A stretch of DNA of 64,000 nucleotides, from IMG/VR virus record IMGVR_UViG_3300027672_001796; one strand, written 5' to 3'. Each line of letters opens with the position of its first letter. Positions within the stretch are counted from its first letter, which is position 1. This document shows, one piece after another, positions 5,355 to 55,699 of the stretch. The position numbers and the translations under genes were made by a program. Source of the stretch: a virus. Its lineage: Duplodnaviria > Caudoviricetes. A model generated the notes under the pieces. The model was given only the letters and a program-made list of their open reading frames with translations, made no database searches and was not told the origin of the DNA.

Positions 5355-5738
5355 TTATTTAAGTTTTGGGTCGATACTTCTAACTAACTGAATACTTCTT
5401 CTTTTGATCCGCTTTTTAAGTATGTTTTGCATACTAGTTACAGGCCCAAACAATATTTCAGTTTCTTTTAGAATAAACGTACTAACACAGTGCCTGAATT
5501 CTTGCATTTCATGGAATAAAAATACATCAATTGGTAACATCCTGTTAGATTCCCACCACCATAAGTCTCCACAATCCATCATGATTTTCTTTTCTTCACT
5601 GTTACGACATTTGTCAATATCGTAAAAACTTATAATCTGGTTGTCCTTGTTTTGCACAATGCCGACATAGTCTTTGCCATTGTACGCCATTCCAGTTAAA
5701 AAAGGGAATTTCTCTTGTAGGTTAGTCTCATTAGTCAT
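5355..5738 (-). CDS. Hypothetical conserved phage protein
   Basis: 127-aa ORF with TATAAATA 6 nt upstream on the minus strand; only minus-strand gene in this block. Confidence 0.7.
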   Translation of the reverse strand: MTNETNLQEKFPFLTGMAYNGKDYVGIVQNKDNQIISFYDIDKCRNSEEKKIMMDCGDLWWWESNRMLPIDVFLFHEMQEFRHCVSTFILKETEILFGPVTSMQNILKKRIKRRSIQLVRSIDPKLK

Positions 5739-5744
5739 CAAAAG

Positions 5745-5752
5745 TATTTATA
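5745..5752 (-). promoter_or_regulatory. T4-type late promoter TATAAATA
   Basis: tatttata on +; back-to-back with a + strand copy at 5762. Confidence 0.65.
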
Positions 5753-5761
5753 GTACAAATG

Positions 5762-5769
5762 GATAAATA
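5762..5769 (+). promoter_or_regulatory. Late promoter GATAAATA
   Basis: Upstream of 5793 ORF. Confidence 0.55.
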
Positions 5770-5792
5770 CATAACAAACATGGAATTAAATA

Positions 5793-6620
5793 ATGTCCTT
5801 TAACGGTAGTCATACAATATATAATTTAGGAAACCAGTCGTTAGACTTAGTTTTAACGATAGAAGGCATAAAAACGGATAACAGACCTATGAATCAAAAT
5901 AAATTAACAGTCCACAAAGGGTTTAATAATAAGTTAAGTTTCTTTGTAAGAAATAGAGATAGAGCTTTGCAAAACATTAGCACCAAGGCCCTATATGCAA
6001 CCATCATGAACCCAAACACCAAACGTAGAATAATGCTCAAGCAACTTACATTGGTAAACAGCGGTACTACTGGAGAAGCAACACTTGATTTAGTCCCATC
6101 CGATTTAAGAAACATTGGCGCAGGACTTTACACAATTGCTATTACAGAATCTGCAGATAACGGTGCATCAGAGTATCCTTTATATGCAAACCAAAATGAT
6201 AGAATTGTAACTGACTTGGAAGTAAAGAGCTCTTTGGAGTACGAACCAATAGCAACACAAGAAACAACAACATTTACACAAACATCAAACACTGATTTGG
6301 GCGATGCCGCCAATACGTTTGTTACTAGTGCAATGTACGGCAATATGGATAACGATCAGAACGGTAGCCATACATGTGCATTTTATATGACTAGCTTTAC
6401 TGGAAATATCACAATACAAGCAAGTGCATTAGAGACTACACCAAGCGAAACAGATTGGTATGATGTAAATGTGCAAGGAGACATCGGTTCTCCAAGTATG
6501 CCATACAACACAGCATTCAGTGGAGTAGATCCTTTCAACTTCAAGATTAACACTAATTGGATTAGGGTTAAATATCACCCAACAGCCGGCACAATAGATA
6601 AATTTCAACTAAGAAATTAA
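5793..6620 (+). CDS. Probable virion structural protein (beta-rich, BppU/Ig-like N-terminus)
   Basis: Beta-strand-rich Thr/Asn/Gly composition; late promoter upstream. Confidence 0.4.
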   Translation: MSFNGSHTIYNLGNQSLDLVLTIEGIKTDNRPMNQNKLTVHKGFNNKLSFFVRNRDRALQNISTKALYATIMNPNTKRRIMLKQLTLVNSGTTGEATLDLVPSDLRNIGAGLYTIAITESADNGASEYPLYANQNDRIVTDLEVKSSLEYEPIATQETTTFTQTSNTDLGDAANTFVTSAMYGNMDNDQNGSHTCAFYMTSFTGNITIQASALETTPSETDWYDVNVQGDIGSPSMPYNTAFSGVDPFNFKINTNWIRVKYHPTAGTIDKFQLRN

Positions 6621-6649
6621 TTGACTTCTTCGCATTAAGCTGTTATAAT
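6621..6649 (+). promoter_or_regulatory. Sigma70-type promoter for primase
   Basis: TTGACT-17 nt-TATAAT. Confidence 0.8.
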
Positions 6650-6657
6650 AACTGAAT

Positions 6658-7635
6658 ATGCATCATCATGAACTAGTAGACCAAGTACATCGATTACTTA
6701 TGGATAATTTGCCCTTAAACTCTGGCAAAACTCCTAGTGGTTGGATAACGTTTGATTGTCCTCTATGTAGCGACAAGAGAAAACGTGCAGGAGTAATTCA
6801 GAGTAATGCTAAAATAAGCTATCACTGTTTTAACTGTAGTTTTACAACTGGCTGGGCACCTAGTCCAAAGTTAGGTCATAAGTACAGGCAACTATGTGAG
6901 ACATTAGGTGTGTCTAACAAGGATATACATAAAGTTGTTTTAGACTTAATGAAGCATTCCGAAGAATTAGAGATAGAAGACAGCACTGAGTATGTTTATA
7001 CAGCGGCTAGTTTCGTAACACATCAATTACCAGAAGAAACTACACTAGTAGAACACATGGAAGATGGACACCCAATTAAAGAATATGCACAACAACGTGG
7101 ATTGCTAGGCAATTTCCCTTTGATGCACATTAACAACAGTCTATACAAAAAACGTTTAGTTGTTCCGTTTCTATATAACAACGAATTAGTAGGATGGACC
7201 GGCAGACACATTAGCCCACCTAACAAAGAAACTGCAAAGTACCTATTAAATGTACAACCAGGCTATGTGTTTAACATAGACAGGTATGTAGACAGTGATA
7301 GAGACTTTGTTATAGTAGTAGAAGGCGTATTTGATGCAATACTTATAGATGGCATAAGTGTTTTGGGTAATAGTGTAACACCTGAACAAGCACATTTGAT
7401 TTCTAAACTTAATAAACGTGTTATACTATGTCCTGATAGAGATAGTGCAGGTAAAGACTTAATAGCAACAGCAGTAGAACTAGGATGGGAAGTAAGTTTT
7501 CCTAAATGGTCGTCTGAATGCAAAGATGTTGCCGATGCAGTAAACAAATATGGCAGGTTATTAACAATGAAGAGCATTACAGAAAATGCAGTTAGTAACG
7601 AACTTAAAATACAAGTTCAGGCAAAAATGCTATGA
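6658..7635 (+). CDS. DNA primase (T4 gp61/DnaG-type TOPRIM)
   Basis: Zn-knuckle CPLC...HCFNC; TOPRIM motifs VVEGVFDA and PDRD; terminal KDVADAV. Confidence 0.9.
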   Translation: MHHHELVDQVHRLLMDNLPLNSGKTPSGWITFDCPLCSDKRKRAGVIQSNAKISYHCFNCSFTTGWAPSPKLGHKYRQLCETLGVSNKDIHKVVLDLMKHSEELEIEDSTEYVYTAASFVTHQLPEETTLVEHMEDGHPIKEYAQQRGLLGNFPLMHINNSLYKKRLVVPFLYNNELVGWTGRHISPPNKETAKYLLNVQPGYVFNIDRYVDSDRDFVIVVEGVFDAILIDGISVLGNSVTPEQAHLISKLNKRVILCPDRDSAGKDLIATAVELGWEVSFPKWSSECKDVADAVNKYGRLLTMKSITENAVSNELKIQVQAKML

Positions 7636-9088: not shown

Positions 9089-10457
9089 CAACTACACACC
9101 CGAAATACAAGAACTATTTTTAAGGTTTATTGTCAGTGACCCTGAACTATTTGTAAGGGTAAACACTATTGTACGCCCTTATATGTTTGATAAGAAGTTT
9201 CAAAAGACAATAACATTCCTTCAAGAGCATACAACTGAATATAATGCAATACCTACTATTGACCAAATAGAAGCGACAACTGGTTTATTACTAGAGCGTG
9301 TTGAAGGCATTAGTGATAACCATACAGACTGGTTTCTTGATAGTTTAGAAAGATTTTGTAGACACAAAGCACTAGAAAAAGCAATCTTGGATAGCACGGA
9401 CTTATTAGAAACGGGCGATTATGGTGCAGTAGAGAATAAAATTAAAGAAGCAACACAGGTTAGTCTCGTAAAAGACTTAGGTCTTGAATATTTTGAAAAT
9501 CCTAAAGAAAGATTGGAATGGATTAGAGCCCAAAGTGGTGCAACAAGTAGTGGCTGGAAAATGTTTGACCAAAAGTTATATGGTGGCATGAACAGAGGCG
9601 AGATTACAATCTTTGCTGGAGGATCTGGTGCAGGTAAAAGTTTGTTCTTGCAGAACTTAGGTGTTAACTGGGCATTAGCAGGACTTAATGTTGTATACAT
9701 TAGTTTAGAGCTTAGTGAACAACTTATTAGTATGCGTTTAGATGCAATGGTCAGTGAACATAGTACTAGAGACATCATGCGTAATATAGATGATGTTGAT
9801 TTAAAAGTAAGAATGAAAGGTAAGAGTGCAGGCAAGTTCCGTATTAAGCAAATGTCGAGTGGTATTAATGCAAACGATATTAGAGCATACGTTAGAGAGT
9901 ATGAAATCAACCATGATGTTAAAGTAGACTGTTTACTTGTAGATTATTTAGACTTGATGAGTCCTATTAGTACAAAAATTAGTGCTAATGACCAGTTTAT
10001 TAAAGACAAATATGTATCTGAAGAATTGCGTAACATTGCAATGGAAAGAAACATACTATTTGCAACAGCATCTCAGTTAAACAGAGGAGCAGTAGAAGAA
10101 ATTGAATTTGACCACAGTCATATTGCTGGTGGTATTAGTAAAATCCAAACAGCAGATAATGTTGTGGGTATCTTTACTAGTAATGCTATGAGAGAACGTG
10201 GCAGATATCAAATACAGTTTATGAAAACACGTTCTAGTAGTGGAGTGGGCAGTAAAGTAGATTTAAAGTTTAATCCAGACACTTTAAGAGTTACAGATTT
10301 AGATGAAGATGACGATGATGCACTAACAGTAACAACAAATAGCCTAGTTAATCAGCTAAAAAGAACCAATACTATTAAAACAGACGAGCCAGAAGCATCC
10401 AGCACAGTTAACGCGGCATTAAACATTAGAGAGTTCATGAAGAAAAATGATGTCTAA
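9078..10457 (+). CDS. Replicative DNA helicase (T4 gp41/DnaB family)
   Basis: Walker A GGSGAGKS, ISLELSE, Walker B LLVDYLDLM, TASQLNR, QFMKTRSS. Confidence 0.92.
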   Translation: MEDNNYTPEIQELFLRFIVSDPELFVRVNTIVRPYMFDKKFQKTITFLQEHTTEYNAIPTIDQIEATTGLLLERVEGISDNHTDWFLDSLERFCRHKALEKAILDSTDLLETGDYGAVENKIKEATQVSLVKDLGLEYFENPKERLEWIRAQSGATSSGWKMFDQKLYGGMNRGEITIFAGGSGAGKSLFLQNLGVNWALAGLNVVYISLELSEQLISMRLDAMVSEHSTRDIMRNIDDVDLKVRMKGKSAGKFRIKQMSSGINANDIRAYVREYEINHDVKVDCLLVDYLDLMSPISTKISANDQFIKDKYVSEELRNIAMERNILFATASQLNRGAVEEIEFDHSHIAGGISKIQTADNVVGIFTSNAMRERGRYQIQFMKTRSSSGVGSKVDLKFNPDTLRVTDLDEDDDDALTVTTNSLVNQLKRTNTIKTDEPEASSTVNAALNIREFMKKNDV

Positions 10458-10459
10458 AT

Positions 10460-10467
10460 GATAAATA
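10460..10467 (+). promoter_or_regulatory. Late promoter GATAAATA opening the head-protein block
   Basis: Immediately after the helicase stop. Confidence 0.55.
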
Positions 10468-10489
10468 TGACTATAACGAGAAATAATTT

Positions 10490-10738
10490 ATGAAAAAGTC
10501 AAGAAGTATATTAGAAGAATTGAACTCTATTAGCACAGATAGAAACAAGCACCACGTTTTGGAAAACAGAGTGGAGCACCTAGTTTCTAGTGCGGCTAAC
10601 ATTAAAGAGATATTATATTCTTTATACGAGGAAGATGTTGCATTGGATTTAGAACGTAGACTCATTAACAGCATTAAAAGTGGCGATCCTAAAAAATTCT
10701 CTCGAGGCATAAACAAAGCCACAAAAGAATCTAAATAA
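10490..10738 (+). CDS. Hypothetical 82-aa helical protein
   Basis: ORF in operon context. Confidence 0.6.
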   Translation: MKKSRSILEELNSISTDRNKHHVLENRVEHLVSSAANIKEILYSLYEEDVALDLERRLINSIKSGDPKKFSRGINKATKESK

Positions 10739-10748
10739 GAGAACTTGT

Positions 10749-12167: not shown

Positions 12168-12168
12168 A

Positions 12169-13449
12169 ATGAATATTAATGAGATAGCAAAGCCTCTTAT
12201 TACACAATTACTTACAGAGAGTCATTTTCAAGAAGGTAAGGAAGGTAAGAATACTCATTTAGAGCATTTAGAGGATAACATCTTTAACAAAGGATATCCC
12301 GGAGCCAAAGAAGCAGTAAATTATTTGTATAGTTTACATGATATGCTAGATGGCAAATCACAACAAGCAGTAAGCATGACAACTAAGTGGGACGGCGCTC
12401 CAGCCATTATTGCTGGCAAAGATCCAGCAACTGGTAAGTTCTTTGTAGGCACCAAAGGCGTATTTGCAAAAATTCCTAAAATGAATTTTACCACTAACGA
12501 CATCAAACTAAATCATCCTGGACAAGATGACCTGCAGAATAAATTAGCATTAGCATTAACTAAATTAAGTAAACTAACTTGGAATACAGTAGCACAGGGA
12601 GATTTTCTTTTTGCGAAAGACACTCTAAGTGAAAAAGAAATTGATGGAGAAAGTTATTTAATTTTTAAACCTAACACATTAGTATATGCTGTGCCTTCCC
12701 AAAGCGAACTGTCTAGTCAGATAGTAAAAAGTGATATAGGTATTGTTTGGCATACAGAATATGTAGGCGGTCCAACATTAGCAGACACTCAAGCAAAGTT
12801 TGGATTTGATAGTAGTGTATTAGGACAAGCACCTGGTGTTTGGCACAGAGATGCAATTATTAAAGACCTTAGTGGCACAGTTACATTTACTGCTACTGAA
12901 AGTGCAGACATTATGTCGGCTATTGCTACAGCAGACCAGTACTTAAAAACTGTAGACCAGGATACATTTGCTTGGTTAGGACAGGGCACAGACTTAGTAG
13001 GCAAAGAGTTCTTACAGCAATTAAAAGCACATGCAAACAATCAAGTAAGGCAAGGACATTTTGACGAACCTACTAAATTTGCACAAGGCTTTGTACAAAA
13101 ATATATAGACTACATGACAAAAGAAATAGACAAAGTTAAAACACAAAAAAGTATCGATGCTAAAACAGAAAAAATGGTAGCAGGCGTTAAATTTATTAGA
13201 GAACATTTACAAAGTATTGTATCAGTGTATGACTTATATTTAAAACTTATTGAAGCAAAAATTAAAATAGTTAAGAAGCTAGAACAAATCCGTGTAATGA
13301 ATACATTTGTACCAACAGAAGATGGATATGAAGTAACAGGCGAAGAAGGCTTTGTTGCAGTTGACAGAATGGGCAATGCATTAAAACTGGTAGACAGATT
13401 AGAGTTTAGTAGACTTAACTTTGGATCAGGTAAACCTAGTGGAAAATAA
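12169..13449 (+). CDS. Ligase-like covalent nucleotidyltransferase (RNA-ligase/capping-enzyme fold), probably head-packaged
   Basis: Motif I TTKWDGAPA, motif III QGDFLF, motif IV EEGFVA, motif V KLVDRLEFS; N-terminal NTHLEHLED; MNINE start. Confidence 0.65.
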   Translation: MNINEIAKPLITQLLTESHFQEGKEGKNTHLEHLEDNIFNKGYPGAKEAVNYLYSLHDMLDGKSQQAVSMTTKWDGAPAIIAGKDPATGKFFVGTKGVFAKIPKMNFTTNDIKLNHPGQDDLQNKLALALTKLSKLTWNTVAQGDFLFAKDTLSEKEIDGESYLIFKPNTLVYAVPSQSELSSQIVKSDIGIVWHTEYVGGPTLADTQAKFGFDSSVLGQAPGVWHRDAIIKDLSGTVTFTATESADIMSAIATADQYLKTVDQDTFAWLGQGTDLVGKEFLQQLKAHANNQVRQGHFDEPTKFAQGFVQKYIDYMTKEIDKVKTQKSIDAKTEKMVAGVKFIREHLQSIVSVYDLYLKLIEAKIKIVKKLEQIRVMNTFVPTEDGYEVTGEEGFVAVDRMGNALKLVDRLEFSRLNFGSGKPSGK

Positions 13450-14212: not shown

Positions 14213-14213
14213 G

Positions 14214-14221
14214 GATAAATA
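14214..14221 (+). promoter_or_regulatory. Late promoter, 5 nt before ATG
   Basis: GATAAATA-gttgt-ATG. Confidence 0.6.
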
Positions 14222-14226
14222 GTTGT

Positions 14227-14760
14227 ATGAAAATAAGTGAAATAGAAGCACCGGGCAAAACCTTAGACCAATTACATAAAGAATGGGTAGTAGCTTATAG
14301 TCCGGACGGTGCCACTCAAGCGAGGGTATGGTCACAGGCAATTAAAGCCCAGGCGGCTGGTATGGAACCAGCAAGAGCACATAATTCTGCATTGTCGGCT
14401 GTTAATAGTAGTAATGATCGCAGACAAGATAGGGCGTTAAACCAACGACAAGCTGATAGAAAAGACAAGCCGTTTGTTGGCGTACCAATGAAGCAAAAAG
14501 GAACTCCACCCACTGCATCAGATTCACCCAAAACTAGAGGCGGACAAATAGGTAACCAAAATGCTTATAGAGGCGGCCCAAAAGCAAAAGCTGGTCCAGG
14601 CAAGAACGCGATTGACGTAATGAAAGACAAATGGGACGATTTCAACAAAGTTGATGGTTTAGCAGGCAAATCTGCCGCTAAAGGAAGTATGATATCAAAA
14701 TATCTCAATAAAGCCGCCGGCGAGATAGTAGCAATGGGTGATAGAGCCCGAAGGAAGTAA
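14227..14760 (+). CDS. Probable head-internal protein
   Basis: MKISEIE start (true ATG 14227 inside the 14185 ORF); basic, low-complexity sequence. Confidence 0.6.
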   Translation: MKISEIEAPGKTLDQLHKEWVVAYSPDGATQARVWSQAIKAQAAGMEPARAHNSALSAVNSSNDRRQDRALNQRQADRKDKPFVGVPMKQKGTPPTASDSPKTRGGQIGNQNAYRGGPKAKAGPGKNAIDVMKDKWDDFNKVDGLAGKSAAKGSMISKYLNKAAGEIVAMGDRARRK

Positions 14761-14805: not shown

Positions 14806-14813
14806 CATAAATA
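14806..14813 (+). promoter_or_regulatory. Late promoter CATAAATA
   Basis: Upstream of AGGAG RBS and the 14847 ATG. Confidence 0.55.
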
Positions 14814-14846
14814 AACGTAACATTAACAAATTCTAGGAGAATTAAC

Positions 14847-15215
14847 ATGGCACAAACTCAAAACACAGGCGCCGCAGTAGCACCAGGTCACTATAGTGGT
14901 CTTCCTCTTGCAGGCGTTCAAGTAGATTTCGGTGTTGACGTTTCAGCTAAATTGGCTGTAGGCGGAGCATTAGATATATTTTTAAAAGCAGTCGGTAACG
15001 AAGGCTTAACACCAGTAGCAGTTGGCACAGTCGACGCAACAGGTGGAGCAGGACAAGGACTTAAGGTTCTTTTCGAAGGCACACATGGAACAGACAAATA
15101 TGACGGAACTAACAGTGAAGCTCTAGCGGCTCATTTGGAAGACGTTGTAATTGCTCTTACAGACGCTGATGGCGTTACATGGGCTAACGTAACTGTTGTA
15201 GCATTTACTCTTTAA
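14847..15215 (+). CDS. Small Ala/Gly/Val-rich virion protein, paralogue A
   Basis: Strong AGGAG RBS, own late promoter and terminator; similar to 15396-15725. Confidence 0.7.
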   Translation: MAQTQNTGAAVAPGHYSGLPLAGVQVDFGVDVSAKLAVGGALDIFLKAVGNEGLTPVAVGTVDATGGAGQGLKVLFEGTHGTDKYDGTNSEALAAHLEDVVIALTDADGVTWANVTVVAFTL

Positions 15216-15303: not shown

Positions 15304-15311
15304 GATAAATA
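15304..15311 (+). promoter_or_regulatory. Late promoter GATAAATA
   Basis: Precedes the structured leader of paralogue B. Confidence 0.55.
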
Positions 15312-15395
15312 AAAGTAACCAGAATACATATCTAATTTAATTTGGTAGTGGTACAAAGACCACAGATATGTAAATTTATAATTAGGAGTCATATT

Positions 15396-15725
15396 ATGGC
15401 ATTAGTAAGAGTAGCAGGGGCAGGTTTTGCCCATGGAGTTTCATTTTCAACAGCACAAGTAACAGCGATCGAAATCGATGCAGGTGTATCATTAGCGGCT
15501 AAAGACGGTTTAGGCGGAGCAGTAGAAAACATCGTATCAGAGTTTTCACCATTGCTTTACATCTCAACAGGCACAGCTGGTAAGATCTTTGCAATCGTTG
15601 ACGGCGTTAATATTGACGCGGCATCATTGACAAAAAGATTACAAGCAAAGGGTACAATAGACGGTGTTAATTTATCAGCACAGACAGTTGTAATCCGCGA
15701 TTTAGCTTCGTTCAGCGCCGCATAG
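15396..15725 (+). CDS. Small virion protein, paralogue B
   Basis: AGGAG RBS at 15384-15388, ATG 15396; AIEIDAGVSLAAKDGLGGAVE aligns with GVQVDFGVDVSAKLAVGGALD of paralogue A. Confidence 0.7.
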   Translation: MALVRVAGAGFAHGVSFSTAQVTAIEIDAGVSLAAKDGLGGAVENIVSEFSPLLYISTGTAGKIFAIVDGVNIDAASLTKRLQAKGTIDGVNLSAQTVVIRDLASFSAA

Positions 15726-15845: not shown

Positions 15846-15853
15846 GATAAATA
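15846..15853 (+). promoter_or_regulatory. Late promoter GATAAATA
   Basis: Upstream of GGAG RBS and ATG 15880. Confidence 0.55.
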
Positions 15854-15879
15854 GTTGTAAGAATACACAGGAGACATAC

Positions 15880-16284
15880 ATGAGTTTAATAAGAGGTGGG
15901 GCAATGGGCTCCGTAGAAGCACTAACAGGTAATATAGAATTTTTTACTTTGTTTACTTCAATTGACATAACTGTAACCGGTGATTATGACGATAACACTC
16001 AAAAAGATTTTGAAAGTGTTGTACAAGTAATAGGATTAAGGGCAATGCCTGTAGTGATGAATAATCCTGTAGCACTAAATGGAGTTGGTACAAACTTATT
16101 ACAAACTTATGGAGCACCAACTATGACAGGTGCCGGGTGGATATTTAAATTTGCTACAGAAGTGCCACATGCACATACTGTTGCAACTTTAGTTAATGAA
16201 CTTAACGGCATAGTGCTTAACAGCGGAACATTAGATACAACGGGCACCATAAACATGGAGTTCACTAAACAGGATTTATTATAA
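15880..16284 (+). CDS. Small virion protein, probable distant paralogue C
   Basis: CAGGAG RBS; MSLIRGG start resembles MALVRVAG; similar size and beta/alpha pattern. Confidence 0.6.
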   Translation: MSLIRGGAMGSVEALTGNIEFFTLFTSIDITVTGDYDDNTQKDFESVVQVIGLRAMPVVMNNPVALNGVGTNLLQTYGAPTMTGAGWIFKFATEVPHAHTVATLVNELNGIVLNSGTLDTTGTINMEFTKQDLL

Positions 16285-24674: not shown

Positions 24675-24682
24675 GTTAAATA
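24675..24682 (+). promoter_or_regulatory. Variant late promoter, 5 nt before ATG
   Basis: GTTAAATA-gtgtt-ATG. Confidence 0.4.
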
Positions 24683-24687
24683 GTGTT

Positions 24688-26007
24688 ATGCAATTTGCTG
24701 ACATTGAAAATCCGTTTATTAATTTTTTATACAGTTGTAATAAGGCTAACTTATTAGAACATGTACCAACACATGCCCGAACTTCGTTGTACGGAATGTG
24801 CCCACAGTTGTCTGATTACTGGAAACCTTTAAATGAGTTACATAAAGGCATTAAAACAATTTATGTAATTAGTCTTGATGGGATTGGATCTAAAGAATTA
24901 TATGAGATATGGGAACAACACCGGTATACTTGCAACCCATTAATACCAGGATACATGCAACAGACAGATTCGGTTATAGTATTTGATAATAGTGCTGAAG
25001 GGCATTGTGATGATTACATGTTTAAGTTTATATCACAAGTAGTCAGTCATTATGAATTAGATTCTACTAAAACATATTATTGTAATAGCAGTACAAATAT
25101 AAATGACCTCCAATCAAAAACACCTTATACTAACTTTATTACATTTACAGCTGATAATTATTTAGAAGATGCTATGACCGATTTGCATGAAGAACTACAA
25201 CCTATGTTAGCACCATTGTTATTCAAAGAAGAAGCAGAAGTATTCGATATTGAAATGAACTTATCTAAAAAGTTTCTTTTTAGTTGCTTAAACAATGCAC
25301 CTAAGCCTTATAGAGCACTATTGCTCGGAGCAATAGCCGAAAGCGGCTTAGACGGCTTCTGTAGTAGTCCTAGAGTGCCATATGACCAGCTTTATGGTAG
25401 TACAATAACGTATTTAAGCGAAGAATTGATTAAACAAACAATCTCTAAAGCAGATTTTAAGATTGGGCTAAAATGGCTAGATAAGTTAGAAGAACATTAC
25501 CCTATTATATTAGACAATCCTAGTGAAGACAGTATTCATATGAAAGAGTTGTCTGCAGATGAAGAATTTATTAACAATTTATTTGATTGCGATCTAAACG
25601 TAGTAACGGAATCAGTTGTTGATAACAACTTGTTTGTGTCAGAAAAAATATATAAGCCTATTATTATGTGTCAGCCGTTTATTGTGTTAGGCCCTACTAA
25701 CGTATATAACTACATTAATGAATTAGGATATAATACTTTTGATTATATCATAGATAATAAACTAATGAATGTAGACCATAACATTATTAGTAGAATTAAA
25801 CGTATAATAGATGCACTCAATACACTTAAAAACACTAAAGCAAACCCTATTGCATGGCAAACACTTAATGATAAGATAGCAATAGATGTTGTACATAATT
25901 ATAACTTATTTAATAAGCGAGTACATGGTTTAAAGACCGCCGGACTAGAAAGTTTGGATGGGTATTTTAAATATCGCCCCGGTTTAAAACAGCCATTATA
26001 TAGTTAA
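24688..26007 (+). CDS. Putative GT-B glycosyltransferase-like protein
   Basis: FSCLNNAPKPYRALL and VVTES...FVSEKIYKPI...PFIVLG...LGYNTFD, resembling the GT10-like C-terminal motif. Confidence 0.55.
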   Translation: MQFADIENPFINFLYSCNKANLLEHVPTHARTSLYGMCPQLSDYWKPLNELHKGIKTIYVISLDGIGSKELYEIWEQHRYTCNPLIPGYMQQTDSVIVFDNSAEGHCDDYMFKFISQVVSHYELDSTKTYYCNSSTNINDLQSKTPYTNFITFTADNYLEDAMTDLHEELQPMLAPLLFKEEAEVFDIEMNLSKKFLFSCLNNAPKPYRALLLGAIAESGLDGFCSSPRVPYDQLYGSTITYLSEELIKQTISKADFKIGLKWLDKLEEHYPIILDNPSEDSIHMKELSADEEFINNLFDCDLNVVTESVVDNNLFVSEKIYKPIIMCQPFIVLGPTNVYNYINELGYNTFDYIIDNKLMNVDHNIISRIKRIIDALNTLKNTKANPIAWQTLNDKIAIDVVHNYNLFNKRVHGLKTAGLESLDGYFKYRPGLKQPLYS

Positions 26008-26010: not shown

Positions 26011-26018
26011 TATAAATA
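26011..26018 (+). promoter_or_regulatory. Late promoter, 5 nt before ATG
   Basis: TATAAATA-caagt-ATG. Confidence 0.7.
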
Positions 26019-26023
26019 CAAGT

Positions 26024-26224
26024 ATGAAGATTAGTGAAATATTTGTAAATGAATCAATGGGAGGAATGACTTCCGCAGGATCAATAGCTACAGTGGTAAA
26101 ACCATTAACTAGTGATGTTCAGCGTGTAGTACAACGACCTAAGAAGCCTAAAAAAATTGGCGGCAAAAAGAAACCTGGACCAAAGACAGAAACGACGACT
26201 AAGTCCACAATCATAAAAAGATAA
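26024..26224 (+). CDS. Small basic probable head-internal protein
   Basis: MKISEIFVNE leader followed by K/P-rich tail. Confidence 0.65.
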   Translation: MKISEIFVNESMGGMTSAGSIATVVKPLTSDVQRVVQRPKKPKKIGGKKKPGPKTETTTKSTIIKR

Positions 26225-26952: not shown

Positions 26953-26960
26953 GATAAATA
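26953..26960 (+). promoter_or_regulatory. Late promoter GATAAATA
   Basis: Upstream of ATG 26993. Confidence 0.55.
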
Positions 26961-26992
26961 CAATTAACAAATTTATAATATCGGGATATACT

Positions 26993-28237
26993 ATGAAAAT
27001 AACAAATTTTAATCAATCTCCTGCAACAAAGATTGCAAAGATTAACAAATACCTACAAGAAGCACACGGCGTTAAAGTCGGCGGCTTCCATACCAAAGAC
27101 GAACTTCAAGCTGTTAGAGAACAAGCTGAAATGCAAGTCATTACATTAAGAAATACTAATAAGAAATTTAACTTGGACCCAGACTATGCAAAGTATCTAG
27201 GTGTTAAAGATGTTATTGATGTTATGATGGCAGAAGGCATGTACGCAGAAGGTCCTGCGGCATTAGGCATGAAGAACGAAGTCCAAGAAACTGTTAAGCA
27301 ATTAATGGACAGTGGTTATACAATGGACGAAGCTAGTACAGAATGCATGAACAGATTCAGACAAGATTCCCGATTTGCGTATGATGATGATTTTGTATTA
27401 CCAATAGTTTTAAAAGCGGCTAAAGACTACTATGAGTCATGTGGTTCAACACATGAAGGCATGTACGAAGCTCCAAGCACAGATTTAGGTGAGAACTTAC
27501 TTAGTGCATTAGCAAAAGAGTGTGGTGTAGAGTTAACTGATCCATCAAGCATTGATGCTATTGAAGAAAAGTTAAACATGTTTGCATCAGTAAGTGGTAA
27601 GAGCAGAGATTCAGTAGCTGGATTTTTAAATAGTTTAGAAGAAGATGCACTAACAAGTGGCATCCAAATGTTTGGTGCTAAAATTGGCGAAGCAAATAAG
27701 CCTGACTTTTTAGACCTAGACAAAGACGGCGATAAAAACGAGCCAATGAAGAAAGCGGCTAAAGACGCCAAAAAAGAAAGCATGTTTGATGACATCATCG
27801 ACAACATGTTAGCAGAAGAAGTAGACGTAGAACAAGCAGAAGTTGTTATGGCGGCAAGAGCCTTAGCAGACGATATCCAAGATATGATTGCTAGACTAGG
27901 CAAAATGCAGAACGAAGATGTTCCTGCAATTGCTGACCAAATGAGAGCAGAAATGGGAGCGGAAGTAGCCTCTGGTTTTAACTCACAAATGGGAACAACA
28001 TTGTCAACACACTTAGAAGCAACAAAGGCTACTAAGGATGCAATGGAAACAGCAATAGCACAAATTACTGGCGAGGCACCGTTAGGCGCACCTGGTGGAG
28101 ATATGGGACTTGCTGATGTCGAAGAGCCAATGCCAACTGAAGAGCCAAGCATTGACGACATGGCTATGGATACTACAGAACCTGCCGCGGCTGGCCCAGA
28201 AGATGAGCCACTAGGTAGAGCACCAGTAGAGATTTAA
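26993..28237 (+). CDS. Probable prohead core/scaffold-type protein
   Basis: Acidic helical protein with many xxE junctions, KPDFLDLDKDGDKNEPMKKAAKD motif and P/E/D-rich tail. Confidence 0.5.
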   Translation: MKITNFNQSPATKIAKINKYLQEAHGVKVGGFHTKDELQAVREQAEMQVITLRNTNKKFNLDPDYAKYLGVKDVIDVMMAEGMYAEGPAALGMKNEVQETVKQLMDSGYTMDEASTECMNRFRQDSRFAYDDDFVLPIVLKAAKDYYESCGSTHEGMYEAPSTDLGENLLSALAKECGVELTDPSSIDAIEEKLNMFASVSGKSRDSVAGFLNSLEEDALTSGIQMFGAKIGEANKPDFLDLDKDGDKNEPMKKAAKDAKKESMFDDIIDNMLAEEVDVEQAEVVMAARALADDIQDMIARLGKMQNEDVPAIADQMRAEMGAEVASGFNSQMGTTLSTHLEATKATKDAMETAIAQITGEAPLGAPGGDMGLADVEEPMPTEEPSIDDMAMDTTEPAAAGPEDEPLGRAPVEI

Positions 28238-28906: not shown

Positions 28907-29911
28907 ATGGTTAAGGCAATTACTCGTGGCGGTGATCCTGCATTTTATAAACAAGCACAAATACGTGAAGTAGCACACGACTATATAGAATCTCAAGATA
29001 GCACTTATACAATACAACCAGATGCCTTGCCCACAGAAATACCTTACATAAATTTTGATGTGCCTGTTGATAATTCCGAGCTTATAAAACGTTCGCTGGC
29101 CTCTGCAAGTTCTATTAGCGGAAAGAATTTCCAGCAAATGCATTCTGCAAGTTTTAAACGTGGACAACAAGAAGAAACAAAATACCAGACATTATTTGAG
29201 ATAGACAGAATTGGCTGGTATAATGCTTTTCCAAAAATAAGTTATAAACTTAATTCACTAGGTACTCGTAATCATATGGAATTTGACGACTTGACTGAAA
29301 ACGAATTTATTCCTGCATTCGGTGATAGTAATACTTTTGGTATGGGACTGCCTGAACACGAGTTGTGGTATAATAAATTAGGTGAGGAACATCCTGTATA
29401 CAATGCTGGAGTTATAAACGGTAACTTAACAGATGTATATTTAATGATGACTAGCATGTATAAAAGCAAGAAGTTCAAGAAGGCATATGTAGTAACACCA
29501 CATGCAGAACGTTGGACTGGAGTTTCAGATGCAGGGTACTTTGAAGGCATAACTAACGGAGCACATTATTTTTTAGAACAGTTTGCACATGCACCAGAAG
29601 TTTTAAATAATAATACTAGACAATTATACAGATGGATGGCATTACAAAGCATAATAAATTTTTGTGCTGTTAACGACATCGAATTAAAAATATATCAATC
29701 AAATACATTTATGCATGTAGCATGGTGTGGAGAACAAAACTTACACATACCTAACTGGTACTTTATTTTTCAACACATGCACAAAAATATTAAAATTGCA
29801 AATGAAAGTGGAAACGACCTTTCAGAGTGGCCCAAACATATGGCAAGGGATTTAATACACTTTGGTTCAGAATGGCATGACAAGATGGCAGAACATCTAC
29901 TAAATATGTAA
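28907..29911 (+). CDS. Protein with C-terminal SGNH-like domain (true start uncertain)
   Basis: YKLNSLGTR, AFGDSNTFGMGLP, YNAG, ARDLIHFGSEWH; frame is open upstream to 28796. Confidence 0.65.
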   Translation: MVKAITRGGDPAFYKQAQIREVAHDYIESQDSTYTIQPDALPTEIPYINFDVPVDNSELIKRSLASASSISGKNFQQMHSASFKRGQQEETKYQTLFEIDRIGWYNAFPKISYKLNSLGTRNHMEFDDLTENEFIPAFGDSNTFGMGLPEHELWYNKLGEEHPVYNAGVINGNLTDVYLMMTSMYKSKKFKKAYVVTPHAERWTGVSDAGYFEGITNGAHYFLEQFAHAPEVLNNNTRQLYRWMALQSIINFCAVNDIELKIYQSNTFMHVAWCGEQNLHIPNWYFIFQHMHKNIKIANESGNDLSEWPKHMARDLIHFGSEWHDKMAEHLLNM

Positions 29912-30553
29912 ATGCATATAAGTGAAACAATGGAAACAATTGTAAATCGTGCAACTGTTTACGAACGTTACATACCACACAAAGAATTCTTTACAGACAC
30001 CTCCGGTCAAATAGAATATACTTTAAACAGTTTATGGCACAGAGATATAGAACTCGAAAGCTATTCCGACTATACTCTAGCAGTAGGATGTAGTCATACA
30101 TTTGGTATAGGCGTAGATACTCCCTGGCCCACACTTATAGATAACTGTTATAATGCAGGCATACCAGGAGCAACAGTACACGACATGTGTGACGTTGCTA
30201 TGGACATATATAGGATAAATCCTTATAAACGAGTACTAATGTTTGCCCCTCACGGCGAGCGATTTTTGGTGTCCCCTAAGGGCAAAACCACAGCATTAAT
30301 GCCGTATAGCGAGGATGCAAACCGGTATAAATCGGTTGACACAGACACTAAAATGCTGTATACTATGAGAAGTATTAATGCATTTAAGTACTTTTGTGAA
30401 GTAAATGGTATTGAACACACTATAATCTGTAATAACAGTATACGGTTTATAAGAGAAAACAAGTCCATATTAGTAGATAAAGGTACAGACGGTGTGCATT
30501 ACGGAAACTTAACTCAACAAAAATTTGCAGGATTATTTAATGCTACTAACTGA
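29912..30553 (+). CDS. SGNH-hydrolase-like protein
   Basis: YTLNSL, AVGCSHTFGIGV, YNAGIPG, GTDGVHYG. Confidence 0.7.
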   Translation: MHISETMETIVNRATVYERYIPHKEFFTDTSGQIEYTLNSLWHRDIELESYSDYTLAVGCSHTFGIGVDTPWPTLIDNCYNAGIPGATVHDMCDVAMDIYRINPYKRVLMFAPHGERFLVSPKGKTTALMPYSEDANRYKSVDTDTKMLYTMRSINAFKYFCEVNGIEHTIICNNSIRFIRENKSILVDKGTDGVHYGNLTQQKFAGLFNATN

Positions 30554-40325: not shown

Positions 40326-40354
40326 TATAACCTAAAAACAGATAAGTATTAACT

Positions 40355-41497
40355 ATGCTGTTAATTCAATTCAACACCTCGATAGATATTTCAATTTTCC
40401 CTGTTGAGATAATTCAAACATTTAAACATGACACATATCTTATTGATTTGAACTTGACCGATTATAGTACAATTAACTATATAACAAGCAACTATGACAT
40501 ACTAAGTATGCAAAGCAATGCTGATATGCCGTATATCGACGTATACGAAGCTCATACAACGTCATACACCAACGTTACAACCGAAGACACACTTGCGCCA
40601 CTTATAGAAAAACTTGACCTACTGAGCATGGCAGAGCCCCATATAGTATGCTTTAGTTGGACAACAGACCGTAACTATATATTAGATTACCGTGTTAAAA
40701 AACTATTAGAAGCTGGATTTTTAGTTGTTTGTGGCGGCGGAAATGCAGACTTACCTATAACAGATGTAAGCCCAGTTGCAGTAGACGGTGTAATTAGAGT
40801 AGGTGGAAACAAATACAACGGACAATATCAAAACTGGATAGACATATATGATGTAACTGTTCCAGATGTGCCTAACACTCATGAAGCGGCACACATAGTA
40901 TGCGAACTAATGATTAATAAGAATTTAGAACTAGATTACAGTTTAGGATTTTATAGCGAAAGTACTATTCGTAGTGCGCCATGGCCTCTTAGACTCGCAC
41001 AAACGCCCAGCACAGCAATTAAATACTATGAATTTATGCCTGTATCCAATTTGCGATACTTTAGCGGAGAGCATTTATTACCAGTTAGAGAAGGCGACAC
41101 AGTAAGTGTACTGTATGGCGGAGTTCCACTAGAAGACTTTACAAGCCCAAGGAACATTCAACTAGACACTACAGTACCAAGAGGGTGTACATTTAACACA
41201 CAAAGTGGTTGGCTGTACGGCACATTTAAATTTAAAGTACCTATGTTCCATAGATTTTTAGCAGACATAAATGGGCAGTTATTCGAGTATCACATTATAA
41301 GTGCTGACGCAGATACTAAGCCAGACTTTGCAGAATGTAAACAAAAATATTTAAACCAGCCATACGATGCTCCACCATTTACTATGAGAGAGTATTGGGT
41401 GCCTATGGCAAGACCTATTAAACTATTAGAGCCAGGCGACCCATTTATTAGAACTTTTAATTTAAACGACTTACATTTATATAGGAGTTACGAATGA
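40355..41497 (+). CDS. Degenerate subtilase (S8)-like protein
   Basis: VCFSW...LLEAGFLVVCGGGN...SPVAVDGVIRVGG follows the subtilisin core; catalytic D/H/S motifs not recognisable. Confidence 0.5.
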   Translation: MLLIQFNTSIDISIFPVEIIQTFKHDTYLIDLNLTDYSTINYITSNYDILSMQSNADMPYIDVYEAHTTSYTNVTTEDTLAPLIEKLDLLSMAEPHIVCFSWTTDRNYILDYRVKKLLEAGFLVVCGGGNADLPITDVSPVAVDGVIRVGGNKYNGQYQNWIDIYDVTVPDVPNTHEAAHIVCELMINKNLELDYSLGFYSESTIRSAPWPLRLAQTPSTAIKYYEFMPVSNLRYFSGEHLLPVREGDTVSVLYGGVPLEDFTSPRNIQLDTTVPRGCTFNTQSGWLYGTFKFKVPMFHRFLADINGQLFEYHIISADADTKPDFAECKQKYLNQPYDAPPFTMREYWVPMARPIKLLEPGDPFIRTFNLNDLHLYRSYE

Positions 41498-44585: not shown

Positions 44586-45439
44586 ACAACGTAAAAAGAG
44601 TTATTTTTGATGTACAGAGTGCTAAGAACATCTTTTGGGACGATACCCCAATTAGAGTTGGAGCATTATTAACAATACCAGATAAGTTTAAAGGCAACCA
44701 ACCGTTATGTATTATAAGTCATGGTTCAGGTGGACTTGGTGCTGATACTGATTTATTTGTAGACAGTCTAGGTAAACATGGTATTGCCACATTATGTGTC
44801 GATAGTTTTACAGGCAGAAGCATGGAAGCCATTGGATGGAATGACTTTAGCAGTTATGTAAGTCCAAAGATGAGAGCAATGGAAACAGTAGAAGCATACA
44901 AGTTCTTATGTGATAACCACAAGAATATGTTCGCTGGCATAGATTTACAACGTATAGCATTTGTAGGATTTAGTTGGGGAGCAGATTCAGTAGCAAATGT
45001 CATTGCCCACTATAGCGAAATACTACCTAAGAAAACATTCTTTTCATTATGCTATGGGAACTTATGGCCCTTTGAGCAAGAGTTTTACAAAGCAAAAGAC
45101 TGGGACGTTACATGCTACCACGGTGCAGATGACCTTTGGACTAGTGCAGAAAAAAGTAAAATATTTGCACAAGAAACAAACAGTCAATTTGTAGAGTTTA
45201 TGGGCGTAACACATGGATTCACAAAGCCTGGATATAAGAAAGAAATAGCAAAGCAAGTGATAATAAATCATCATGCAGACTTTCCAGTACCCACAGACCT
45301 AAAGCAAGTGTACAGCTGGATACAAAAGGGCAAAGTTTGGGAAGATACTGAATGGAAGAAAGTAGATGCCCCATTAGACTATGACCAAATGGCAACAGAA
45401 AGAGTATTAGCGGATATAGTTAACAAACTCAAATCATAG
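44582..45439 (+). CDS. Alpha/beta hydrolase, dienelactone-hydrolase family
   Basis: IISHGSGG, nucleophile elbow GFSWG, HGADD, HGF. Confidence 0.8.
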   Translation: MNNVKRVIFDVQSAKNIFWDDTPIRVGALLTIPDKFKGNQPLCIISHGSGGLGADTDLFVDSLGKHGIATLCVDSFTGRSMEAIGWNDFSSYVSPKMRAMETVEAYKFLCDNHKNMFAGIDLQRIAFVGFSWGADSVANVIAHYSEILPKKTFFSLCYGNLWPFEQEFYKAKDWDVTCYHGADDLWTSAEKSKIFAQETNSQFVEFMGVTHGFTKPGYKKEIAKQVIINHHADFPVPTDLKQVYSWIQKGKVWEDTEWKKVDAPLDYDQMATERVLADIVNKLKS

Positions 45440-45446
45440 ATAAATA
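45439..45446 (+). promoter_or_regulatory. Late promoter, 5 nt before ATG
   Basis: GATAAATA-caagt-ATG. Confidence 0.6.
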
Positions 45447-45451
45447 CAAGT

Positions 45452-54679: not shown

Positions 54680-54730
54680 GCAACAGAGGGATGCCTCTGA
54701 AACATAAACTTATATGAGAAAGTTTTGATA

Positions 54731-54815
54731 GCCCGAGTGGTGAAATAGGTAAACACAGTAGACTTAAAATCTGCCGCCGACAGGCTTGACGGTTCGATTC
54801 CGTCCTCGGGCACCA
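54731..54815 (+). tRNA. trnL: tRNA-Leu(UAA)
   Basis: GCCCGAG/CTCGGGC, anticodon loop CTTAAAA, long variable arm, GTTCGAT, CCA. Confidence 0.95.
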
Positions 54816-54820
54816 AACTA

Positions 54821-54858
54821 AGTAGGTCTCATTGCCCTACTATAAATAATCGAATGAG
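54821..54858 (+). promoter_or_regulatory. H-type pseudoknot resembling a preQ1-I aptamer, overlapping a TATAAATA late promoter (54841-54848)
   Basis: AGTAGG/CCTACT stem, loop TCTCATTGC, A-rich tail, CTCATT/AATGAG second stem. Confidence 0.4.
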
Positions 54859-54964
54859 TGGTGCACTCGGCCCCTTGGGTTTTATTCCCCAAGTAAAATA
54901 ATTGAATGAATGGTGCCCAGGTATAGGCAACACATAATTATTATTAACTAGCATAAGGAGAAGC

Positions 54965-55138
54965 ATGGCATTGAATAAATCAGAGAGTACTATCAAACGA
55001 GAGAAGGAAGAGTCTGATCGTTTGGTCCAGGAGTATTTAGATAGAGGCGGCAAGGTAACAGTTTGCGAACCTTTTGCTATTTCTCCACCAAGTGAAAACC
55101 CACCCAATAAGTGGGGAGCAAAAAAGAAAGCAGACTGA
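54965..55138 (+). CDS. 57-aa SutA-like RNA-polymerase-binding protein (not in ORF track)
   Basis: TAAGGAG RBS; KEESDRLVQEYLDRGGKVTVCEP...PPNKWG resembles the recalled SutA core ERDAL...EEFLSRGGKVQEIEP...PDSKYG. Confidence 0.65.
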   Translation: MALNKSESTIKREKEESDRLVQEYLDRGGKVTVCEPFAISPPSENPPNKWGAKKKAD

Positions 55139-55173
55139 TGGACCGAAACAATAACCCTGACACCGTAAATTCA

Positions 55174-55181
55174 CATAAATA
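55174..55181 (+). promoter_or_regulatory. Late promoter, 5 nt before ATG
   Basis: CATAAATA-gtagc-ATG. Confidence 0.55.
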
Positions 55182-55186
55182 GTAGC

Positions 55187-55699
55187 ATGAAAGAATTTAT
55201 AAAAAGTGCAGGGTTATTGTTAGGTTGCATTGCTCTTGCAAGATTCATTGACTTGCCAGCAAATGTAACGCCATTTATGGCAATGGCAGTCTTTATGCCA
55301 TACATGACAAGCAATCGCTTGTTACAACTAGCACTTCCAACTACACTATTGTTTGCCACAGACCTTATAATTGGGCTATATGGACCGCTTATGCTGTTTG
55401 TATACGGCACTATGCTCCTCACAGGGCTCTTGTCTCGGCTTTTACATAAGGATAACATACAAACACTACTGGGTACTTCTGTGTTAAGTGTTGTTTTATG
55501 GCACTTTATTGTTAACGGAGCAGTGGTATTCTTTGGTAGTGGCTTTGGCCCATTAACACCAGAAGCATTATTGTTTGATATACGATTGCTTGTAAGTACA
55601 CTTGTATTTTCAAGTATGTTTTATGGAGTAAGGAGTTTGTTTACACAAGAACAAGCAGATATAATACAAATAAGTGAATATAAAAATGTCAGACTTTAA
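55187..55699 (+). CDS. Multi-pass membrane protein, ECF S-component-like (DUF6580/CblT-type)
   Basis: About five hydrophobic helices; ARF..LPANVTP..AMAVF, L..TDLIIG.Y, W..IVN, FDIRLLVSTL.FS. Confidence 0.55.
   Translation: MKEFIKSAGLLLGCIALARFIDLPANVTPFMAMAVFMPYMTSNRLLQLALPTTLLFATDLIIGLYGPLMLFVYGTMLLTGLLSRLLHKDNIQTLLGTSVLSVVLWHFIVNGAVVFFGSGFGPLTPEALLFDIRLLVSTLVFSSMFYGVRSLFTQEQADIIQISEYKNVRL

What the first reader, a model, noticed from the sequence alone, without database searches (positions are those of the whole stretch)
5738..55189. Systematic leaderless-mRNA architecture: ATAAATA-N5-ATG
Seen: in five + strand genes (four-base variation in the first octamer position, N-ATAAATA) and one near-match (GTTAAATA) the late-promoter octamer is exactly 5 nt before the ATG with no Shine-Dalgarno: 14214 (gttgt), 24675 (gtgtt), 26011 (caagt), 45439 (caagt), 47258 (gtagt), 55174 (gtagc). 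It is 6 nt before the ATG at 5745(-). Sigma70 promoters show the same: TATAAT is 6, 7 and 8 nt before the ATG at 52291, 52983 and 6658. Established: a -10-type element lies about 5-7 nt upstream of +1. Inference: transcription starts at or next to the A of AUG, so the phage uses two translation classes, leaderless mRNAs versus strong-AGGAG mRNAs for abundant virion proteins. Leaderless initiation on 70S ribosomes could persist under stress or after anti-SD cleavage.
Basis: partly seen in the sequence, partly recalled or inferred. Interest (0 to 1): 0.7.

Follow-up and report, generated by a model that had tools for sequence, protein, structure and literature searches.

The report
Late promoters fused to start codons
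In this uncultured marine giant phage, many late genes begin exactly where a T4-type promoter should start transcription, so their messages probably open with the AUG itself and lack a ribosome-binding leader, while the most abundant particle proteins keep the normal leader; no RNA 5'-end map confirms this yet.

Summary
Observation confirmed. The window belongs to a marine jumbo phage related to Paride/PA5oct. Five of 29 ATAAATA boxes lie exactly 5 nt before an ORF-opening ATG, one at 6, none at 0-4 or 7-19 (corrected P about 1e-5). I found two more near-match sites (29912, 40355). T4's late box spans -13 to -6, which puts the A of ATG at +1. Relatives agree: 75 of 440 boxes at 5 nt, pyrimidine at -1 in 98%, ATG only, weakly folded 5' ends, and SD-led boxes show the same start step. 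The layout is frequent in this marine clade and in SAR11 phages HTVC008M and Mosig, rare in Paride and SCTP-2, and absent in T4, Syn9 and Atu_ph07. Major capsid, sheath and tube keep SD leaders in every genome checked. Neck, terminase, baseplate and tape-measure genes are often leaderless, so the two-class idea holds as a copy-number split. The stress or anti-SD-cleavage purpose is unsupported: a 91%-complete relative has no RegB or MazF match and encodes bS21. No transcription start was mapped and the host is unknown. This scan already noted the layout in this and other genomes; I found no paper on it.

The parts
14214..14229 (+). Late box GATAAATA + 5 nt + ATG; predicted leaderless start of a 177-aa gene (14227-14760, unknown function, begins MKISEI)
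   Evidence: orthologs L005, L006, L009, L013, L014, L023 keep d=5
24675..24690 (+). Near-match box GTTAAATA + 5 nt + ATG; 439-aa gene (24688-26007, unknown function)
   Evidence: orthologs in G001 and G002 have a perfect box at d=6
26011..26026 (+). TATAAATA + 5 nt + ATG; 66-aa basic protein (26024-26224)
   Evidence: orthologs leaderless in G001, G002, G003
29899..29914 (+). Additional near-match site ACTAAATA + 5 nt + ATG (29912); 213-aa gene; the ATG follows the upstream stop codon directly, so coupling is also possible here
40341..40357 (+). Additional variant site GATAAGTA + 6 nt + ATG (40355); 380-aa gene
   Evidence: similar-size genes with similar N-termini in G001, G002, G003 have perfect ATAAATA at d=6 (orthology inferred, not aligned)
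45439..45454 (+). GATAAATA + 5 nt + ATG; radical SAM protein (45452-46474)
   Evidence: orthologs d=5 or 6 in G001, G003
47258..47273 (+). TATAAATA + 5 nt + ATG; first of three paralogous genes (47271-47849)
55174..55189 (+). CATAAATA + 5 nt + ATG; DUF6580 membrane protein (55187-55699)
   Evidence: G001 ortholog also d=5
5736..5752 (-). TATAAATA + 6 nt + ATG 5738 (0- or 1-nt leader); 127-aa gene 5355-5738, divergent from gene 5793, so no upstream gene can feed it
   Evidence: (more than ten orthologs at d=6)
52256..52293 (+). Sigma70 promoter TTGACA-17-TATAAT, 6 nt before ATG 52291 (76-aa gene)
52947..52985 (+). Sigma70 promoter TTGACA-17-TATAAT, 7 nt before ATG 52983 (115-aa gene)
6621..6660 (+). 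Sigma70 promoter TTGACT-17-TATAAT, 8 nt before the primase ATG 6658 (about a 2-nt leader here; 24 of 36 primase-size cases in relatives have 6 nt)
14806..14849 (+). Contrast class: late box, 28-nt leader with AGGAG, ATG 14847
15304..15398 (+). Contrast class: late box, long leader with AGGAG, ATG 15396
15846..15882 (+). Contrast class: GATAAATA with the same spacer (gttgt, then A) as leaderless site 14214, but followed by a 21-nt AGGAG leader; 134-aa gene, SD-led in 7 of 7 genomes
26953..26995 (+). Contrast class: late box with 27-nt leader before virion structural gene 26993
60056..60107 (-). Contrast class: TATAAATA with 36-nt leader containing AAGGA before ATG 60058

Best explanation
NATAAATA is the phage's late promoter, read by host RNA polymerase with a phage gp55-like sigma factor. 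As in T4 it spans -13 to -6, so transcription starts at the sixth base after the box, on a pyrimidine|purine step. At roughly a third to a half of promoter-led late genes that base is the A of the start codon (d=5), or the base just before it (d=6). These mRNAs have a 0-1 nt leader and are translated by the known leaderless route, in which a 70S ribosome with fMet-tRNA binds a 5'-terminal AUG. At the other late promoters the same +1 is followed by a 10-55 nt leader with a Shine-Dalgarno site. A minority of sigma70 early promoters (primase and others) are leaderless too. Likely use (inferred, about 50%): one invariant late promoter drives two translation strengths. SD leaders serve high-copy parts (capsid, sheath, tube); no leader serves low-copy parts and enzymes (neck, terminase, baseplate, tape measure) and saves about 50 bp of intergenic DNA per gene. 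Shown: spacing, enrichment, conservation, sequence signatures, gene classes. Inferred: promoter activity, exact +1, leaderless translation, lower output.
For: Spike at d=5: window 5/29; marine loci 75/440, against 6/1330 for control ATAAAT[CGT]; 340-kb relative G003 17/121 plus 7 at d=6; G004 10/36; G006 8/28. T4 box at -13 to -6 (PMC1524935; PMC2988020). The same ATAAATA box was proposed as the late promoter of relatives CBB and GAP32 (PMC5259590). gp55 homologs in G003 (E 9e-7 to T4 gp55) and Paride. Pyrimidine at -1 in 55/56 d=5 starts versus 43/78 SD starts (P=2e-9). At SD-led boxes the Y|R step peaks at the same position, 100/155 versus 31-62 elsewhere; this places +1 without using the leaderless genes. 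No GTG/TTG at d=5 in four genomes. First 40 nt fold less, median -1.8 versus -3.2 kcal/mol (P=0.002). A at +4 in 47/77 versus 29/78. AUG only, low structure and a 0-nt peak with a 1-nt shoulder are the measured signature of leaderless mRNAs (PMC8459731). SD-like motif upstream of only 3/77. Tube 8/8 and sheath 6/6 SD-led, capsid SD-led in 3/3; neck Ad2 and TerL leaderless in marine genomes but SD-led in Paride and/or SCTP-2.
Against: No transcription start has been mapped in this phage or clade; +1 is borrowed from T4 and from sequence bias. The gp55 homolog lies outside the window and was shown only in relatives; gp45 and gp33 homologs were not found in G003. Orthologous sites are not independent, so the pooled P-values are optimistic. 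About a quarter of sites (18/77) lie within 12 nt of an upstream stop and could also be translated by re-initiation. Some low-copy genes are SD-led (portal 4/4) and some switch class (PAAR), so the copy-number rule is a tendency. Protein levels were not measured. The host is unknown.
Confidence: 0.8

Rival explanations
1. The genes are translated by re-initiation or 70S scanning on read-through transcripts from the upstream gene. The AT-rich box merely fills a small intergenic gap, or supplies the upstream TAA stop codon.
For: The upstream stop falls inside the box at 17/77 sites and within 12 nt of the ATG at 18/77. Window sites 14227, 26024 and 45452 have 12-16 nt gaps; 29912 directly follows a stop.
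Against: 20/77 sites have a divergent neighbour and 27/77 have no co-directional ORF of 80 aa or more ending within 60 nt; window site 5738 (-) has no upstream gene on its strand. Coupling predicts neither an exact 5-nt spacing nor a 98% pyrimidine at -1. SD-led boxes overlap stops about as often (12/80).
Confidence: 0.08
2. ATAAATA at -12 to -6 acts at the RNA level as a non-SD translation-initiation signal, like the Kozak-like A-rich signals of Bacteroidota, and the mRNAs have ordinary leaders from other promoters.
For: Fixed distance to the ATG and AU-richness; such signals exist in Flavobacterium (PMC6847099, abstract).
Against: The same box lies at variable distances (14-60 nt) before SD-led genes with the same Y|R step. 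It equals the T4 late promoter. The phage uses strong AGGAG sites, so the host reads SD. A at -3 is not enriched in the class (22/56 versus 46/78 for SD genes).
Confidence: 0.04
3. The mRNAs are leaderless, and their purpose is to keep translation going when the host is stressed or the anti-SD is cleaved.
For: (p)ppGpp and oxidative stress can favour leaderless translation in E. coli (PMC9031893). The likely hosts live in nutrient-poor water. The relative Paride is known, from my own knowledge, to replicate in dormant cells.
Against: Capsid, sheath and tube need SD pairing, so anti-SD loss would stop virion production anyway. RegB and PemK/MazF families were not found in G003, Paride, HTVC008M or Mosig. 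All four encode bS21, which supports SD pairing (PMC9723584; PMC10491246). Paride has few leaderless sites (3/144). The MazF model was not reproduced.
Confidence: 0.1
4. The mRNAs are leaderless, but the sorting is near-neutral: deletion bias removes leaders wherever lower expression is tolerated and the host ribosome permits it, with no positive selection for tuning.
For: Intergenic gaps are shorter at leaderless sites, median 22-27 versus 70 nt. Orthologs switch class between genomes (neck, TerL, PAAR, a 420-aa virion protein). The trait appears on both sides of the deep split in the helicase tree, in marine phages.
Against: Not distinguishable from tuning with sequence alone. These are 340-kb genomes and keep long leaders at many genes.
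Confidence: 0.3

Closest known systems
Phage T4 late promoters (TATAAATA at -13 to -6; gp55 sigma, gp33, gp45 clamp; PMC1524935, PMC2988020)
   Same: Same box, no -35 element, in front of virion and packaging genes; gp55 homolog in close relatives.
   Different: T4 has 0 of 65 boxes at 5 nt from an ORF-opening ATG, and its box-led genes have leaders. Here the first base is often G, and gp33/gp45 were not found in G003.
Predicted ATAAATA late promoter of Rak2-like jumbo phages CBB and GAP32 (PMC5259590); PA5oct/Paride
   Same: Same phage lineage (helicase 56% to PA5oct/Paride, gene order like Paride) and same motif.
   Different: No leaderless class is described in the CBB or PA5oct papers. Cultured members have few (Paride 3/144, SCTP-2 7/335) or none (Atu_ph07 0/102).
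Bacterial leaderless mRNAs (lambda cI; Caulobacter, mycobacteria; PMC8459731, PMC9031893, PMC10491246)
   Same: AUG at the 5' end, AUG only, low structure, 0-nt peak with 1-nt shoulder, frequent A at +4.
   Different: Known phage cases are mostly single repressor genes from host-sigma promoters (own knowledge), and phiKZ dRNA-seq found none (PMC8244752). Here it is a large share of a lytic late programme under a phage sigma factor.
Pelagibacter myophages HTVC008M and Mosig
   Same: Same box-N5-ATG layout (9/45 and 6/56); in HTVC008M at annotated starts of tube cap, baseplate wedge, tape measure, DNA end protector and CsgF.
   Different: A different lineage (groups with cyanophage Syn9 and T4 in the helicase tree); not described as leaderless in the papers I found.

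Membership tests
T4-type (gp55) late promoter | Octamer (T/N)ATAAATA without a -35 element | tested here: met
   29 ATAAATA in the window; base composition around 557 sites shows no conserved upstream bases beyond the first octamer position over the 3 nt examined; a -35 region was not scanned in full
T4-type (gp55) late promoter | Located before virion and packaging genes | tested here: met
   Sheath, tube, neck, TerL, portal, baseplate wedge, tape measure in relatives
T4-type (gp55) late promoter | Phage encodes a gp55-like sigma factor | tested here: inconclusive
   Not in the window; found in 340-kb relative G003 (E 9e-7) and Paride; own genome not held
T4-type (gp55) late promoter | gp33 co-activator and gp45 sliding clamp | tested here: inconclusive
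   No significant phmmer match in G003 or Paride with T4 queries; also not detected in CBB (PMC5259590); may be too divergent
T4-type (gp55) late promoter | Transcription starts 6 bases after the box, late in infection | not testable with these tools
   Only indirect: Y|R step at that position in 100/155 SD-led boxes; only RNA contigs, no raw reads, were offered
Leaderless mRNA | Mapped 5' end at or within about 1 nt of the start codon | not testable with these tools
   No 5'-end data; leaderless genes were barely covered by the RNA contigs
Leaderless mRNA | No Shine-Dalgarno site before the start | tested here: met
   SD-like motif at -18 to -4 in 3/77 sites
Leaderless mRNA | Strong AUG preference | tested here: met
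   0 GTG/TTG at d=5 in window, G002, G003, HTVC008M, against 39 ATG
Leaderless mRNA | Accessible, weakly folded 5' end | tested here: met
   Median MFE of first 40 nt -1.8 versus -3.2 kcal/mol, P=0.002
Leaderless mRNA | Translation begins at the 5' AUG on 70S ribosomes | not testable with these tools
   Needs ribosome profiling or toeprinting; ortholog N-termini do begin at that Met
MazF/RegB-type selective translation (stress ribosomes, SD cleavage) | Phage-encoded nuclease that removes anti-SD or SD sites | tested here: not met
   REGB_T4 found only in T4; PemK_toxin in none of five phage records; the window's own full genome and host nucleases could not be searched

The most novel reading that the evidence does not exclude
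Marine jumbo phages and SAR11 myophages independently turned a third to a half of their gp55-type late promoters into leaderless units. They use leader presence as a two-level stoichiometry code for virion assembly under one invariant promoter, possibly balanced by a phage-encoded bS21. The box-to-ATG histogram would then give exact transcription starts from sequence alone and mark a shared kind of host ribosome.
Probability: 0.4. Interest if true: 0.68.

Novelty: new variant of a known kind. Interest (0 to 1): 0.5.

Why it matters
T4-type late promoters are nearly identical to one another, so protein ratios must be set after transcription. If true, this shows a simple way to do it: keep or drop the leader. 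It would make leaderless initiation, usually treated as a minor route in proteobacteria, central to the late programme of widespread ocean phages. It is directly testable in cultured systems (HTVC008M on Pelagibacter; a few genes of Paride on P. aeruginosa PAO1). It also helps gene calling: the public call starts one window gene at 52276, inside its promoter, rather than at 52291.

Tried and rejected
(1) RNA evidence: only Logan contigs were offered. On 10400-30300 the predicted leaderless starts were barely covered, so nothing was tested. Contigs of two runs from one study began 12-17 nt downstream of the predicted +1 at SD-led boxes (14836 vs 14819; 15329/15330 vs 15317; 26983 vs 26966). This fits but is too weak to count. 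(2) Host: glyA gave 56-61% identity to Alphaproteobacteria and Clostridia alike, and its 68-70% hits are probably mis-binned phage contigs. Cytochrome c and DUF6580 homologs carried no useful taxon names. Host unknown. (3) Do streamlined Alphaproteobacteria themselves show a -10-to-ATG spike? 400 kb of a 1,410,127-bp, 33% GC genome (size matches HIMB59 from memory, not verified) showed none. It is not a known host and the test is weak. (4) Alphaproteobacterial host as predictor: Cr30, phiN3 and Phosso have no ATAAATA-N5-ATG, and Atu_ph07 has none opening an ORF in 400 kb; these phages may use other boxes. (5) One family search used a wrong Pfam accession and was replaced by phmmer. (6) SAR11 5' UTR statistics were not found in the mdRNA-seq paper text. 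(7) The helicase tree does not formally exclude one origin with losses. (8) Four literature searches aimed at leaderless phage late transcripts found no description of this layout; the library lacks most subscription papers.
Full report
What the window is. It is 37% GC, carries five tRNAs, and encodes primase, DnaB helicase, ribonucleotide reductase and virion proteins. The helicase is 56% identical to Pseudomonas jumbo phages PA5oct and Paride, 51% to Atu_ph07 and about 41% to 121Q-like phages, and the gene order resembles Paride. A window protein occurs on a 340,740-bp contig, and near-identical DNA occurs in marine RNA libraries. So this is an uncultured marine jumbo myophage of the Rak2/PA5oct lineage. 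The host was not identified.

Observation. Every listed site is real. Of 29 ATAAATA heptamers, five lie 5 nt before an ATG that opens an ORF of at least 50 codons, one lies at 6 nt, and none at 0-4 or 7-19. Chance expectation is 0.14 per distance (P=3e-7; 1.4e-5 after 46 distances). Two more near-match sites exist, at ATG 29912 and ATG 40355. One correction: the first octamer position shows G, T and C in the five genes, not all four bases.

Relatives. In 1.49 Mb of related IMG/VR loci, 75 of 440 distinct boxes sit at d=5 and 21 at d=6, with one in total at d=0-4. The control ATAAAT[CGT] gives 6 of 1330. Per genome (d5/d6/all boxes): G003, a 340-kb contig rated 91% complete, 17/7/121; G004 10/4/36; G006 8/0/28; G002 8/3/33; G001 6/4/30; G007 2/2/26. 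Counting only boxes that lead to a gene, a third to over half are leaderless (window 6 of 12, G003 24 of 61); my SD-led count covers only leaders up to 60 nt and so undercounts. Cultured phages: HTVC008M 9/45 and Mosig 6/56, both on SAR11; Paride 3/144 and SCTP-2 7/335, weak but above background; T4 0/65, Syn9 0/38, Atu_ph07 0/102 in 400 kb. A pattern scan without an ORF filter showed no spike in P-SSM2, 121Q, XaC1, Vibrio 2.275.O, Cr30, phiN3 or Phosso. In a helicase tree HTVC008M groups with Syn9 and T4, apart from the jumbo clade. The trait is therefore rich on both sides of a deep split and poor in the nearest cultured relatives of each. Convergence is likely but not formally shown.

Why this means +1 is the A of ATG. 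The T4 late box TATAAATA spans -13 to -6 (PMC1524935; PMC2988020), which leaves five bases before +1. The same ATAAATA motif was proposed as the late promoter of the related phages CBB and GAP32 (PMC5259590). G003 and Paride encode gp55 homologs. An internal check that does not use the leaderless genes: at 155 boxes followed by an SD leader, a pyrimidine|purine step occurs between the fifth and sixth base in 100 cases, against 31-62 at other positions. In the window, box 15846 has the same spacer as leaderless site 14214, followed by A and then an AGGAG leader. At d=5 starts the base before the ATG is a pyrimidine in 55 of 56, against 43 of 78 for SD starts. The start codon is always ATG (no GTG/TTG at d=5 in four genomes), the first 40 nt fold less (P=0.002), and +4 is more often A (47/77 versus 29/78). 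AUG only, low structure and a 0-nt peak with a small 1-nt shoulder are the measured features of natural leaderless mRNAs (PMC8459731). A(+4) stacking was seen in the lambda cI initiation complex (PMC10491246). Orthologous sites are not independent, so pooled P-values are optimistic. None of this replaces a mapped 5' end; the RNA contigs could not provide one.

Sigma70 class. Two perfect promoters lie 6 and 7 nt before ATGs 52291 and 52983. The primase promoter is 8 nt away here but 6 nt in 24 of 36 primase-size cases in relatives. Two other conserved families (485 aa and 224 aa) also sit at 5-7 nt. Most sigma70 promoters in G003 have leaders of about 25-35 nt, so this is a smaller class.

Which genes. 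Clustering the first gene behind each box with PHROGs labels gives a pattern. Tail tube is SD-led in 8 of 8 genomes, sheath in 6 of 6, portal in 4 of 4, and the major capsid gene has AGGAG in G003, Paride and HTVC008M. The head-tail adaptor is leaderless in G003, G004 and G006 but SD-led in G007, Paride, SCTP-2 and Mosig. Large terminase is leaderless in G002 and G003 but SD-led in SCTP-2. A baseplate wedge subunit, a tape-measure-like protein and a tube-like paralog are leaderless in G003. In HTVC008M the annotated starts of tube cap, two baseplate wedge genes, tape measure, DNA end protector and CsgF are at d=5. The split is therefore not virion versus non-virion but roughly high-copy versus low-copy, with exceptions (portal SD-led; PAAR in either class). 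Orthologs switch by losing or gaining the leader while the box stays. That lower output results is inferred; efficient leaderless translation is known in some hosts.

Rivals. Re-initiation from the upstream gene may add to expression at tight junctions (18 of 77 within 12 nt of a stop), but 20 of 77 sites are divergent and coupling does not explain the exact spacing or the -1 pyrimidine. An RNA-level signal is unlikely because the box also lies at variable distances before SD genes. RegB and MazF families were not found. bS21, which supports SD pairing, is encoded by G003, Paride, HTVC008M and Mosig. The most needed late proteins rely on SD. The MazF model was not reproduced by others (PMC9031893). 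Near-neutral loss of leaders where tolerated cannot be told from selected tuning with sequence alone.

Comparison and novelty. Both parts are known: the T4-type late promoter and leaderless initiation. Their systematic union in a lytic late programme was not found in the paper library; phiKZ dRNA-seq found no leaderless phage transcripts (PMC8244752). This scan has noted the same layout in other windows of this genome and in other marine and lake giant phages. Those notes are unchecked AI readings and are not counted as support. My tests add the internal +1 calibration, the ortholog switching, the copy-number sorting and the weak signal in Paride and SCTP-2, which offers a fast-growing laboratory system.

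Verdict. Real and far above chance. Leaderless late mRNAs are about 80% likely; purpose most likely expression tuning or tolerated compaction. New variant of a known kind; interest 0.5.

Noticed in passing
window 5736-5795: Back-to-back late boxes (TATAAATA on -, GATAAATA on +) about 10 nt apart drive divergent genes. The + gene 5793 (virion structural family) has an 18-nt leader containing an out-of-frame ATG that opens a 7-codon ORF, whereas its orthologs in Paride (Paride_0019) and several marine loci are leaderless.
   Followed up: partly
window 10749, 12169, 14227, 16537, 16913, 26024, 28240: Many late proteins begin M-K/R/N-I/L-x-E-I/L/V (MKISEI, MKLDEL, MNINEI, MRLEEI, MKIAEV). From memory this resembles a T4-type capsid-targeting or prohead-protease signal; it occurs in both leader classes.
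   Followed up: no
G003:145827-145979 (L139:5680-6078, -): The close relative encodes an extended bS21-like protein (about 130 aa, with N- and C-terminal extensions); Paride, HTVC008M and Mosig also encode bS21. A role in balancing SD-led and leaderless translation is untested.
   Followed up: partly
window 52276-52521: Public gene calls start this ORF at ATG 52276, which lies inside the spacer of a perfect sigma70 promoter; the likely start is 52291.
   Followed up: partly
window 3639-4781, 55187-56234, 57639-57971: Host-like metabolic genes: serine hydroxymethyltransferase (recognised from sequence and homologs), DUF6580 membrane protein, peptide deformylase, glycoside hydrolase family 6 match and a c-type cytochrome.
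   Followed up: partly
window 61668-63963 versus L330-L333: The cytidyltransferase-like gene and its neighbour vary in length among near-identical strains (495 to 570 aa; 430 to 524 aa), suggesting variable inserts.
   Followed up: no
window 62708-62765: Two late-type boxes face each other inside gene 61668-63155 (TATAAATA on +, GATAAATA on -), about 50 nt apart; could be antisense or internal promoters, or chance.
   Followed up: no
L167-L169 (GTDB MAG contigs): Contigs filed under Crocinitomicaceae and Rhodobacteraceae MAGs carry the phage-type glyA at 68-70% identity and may be mis-binned phage DNA.
   Followed up: no
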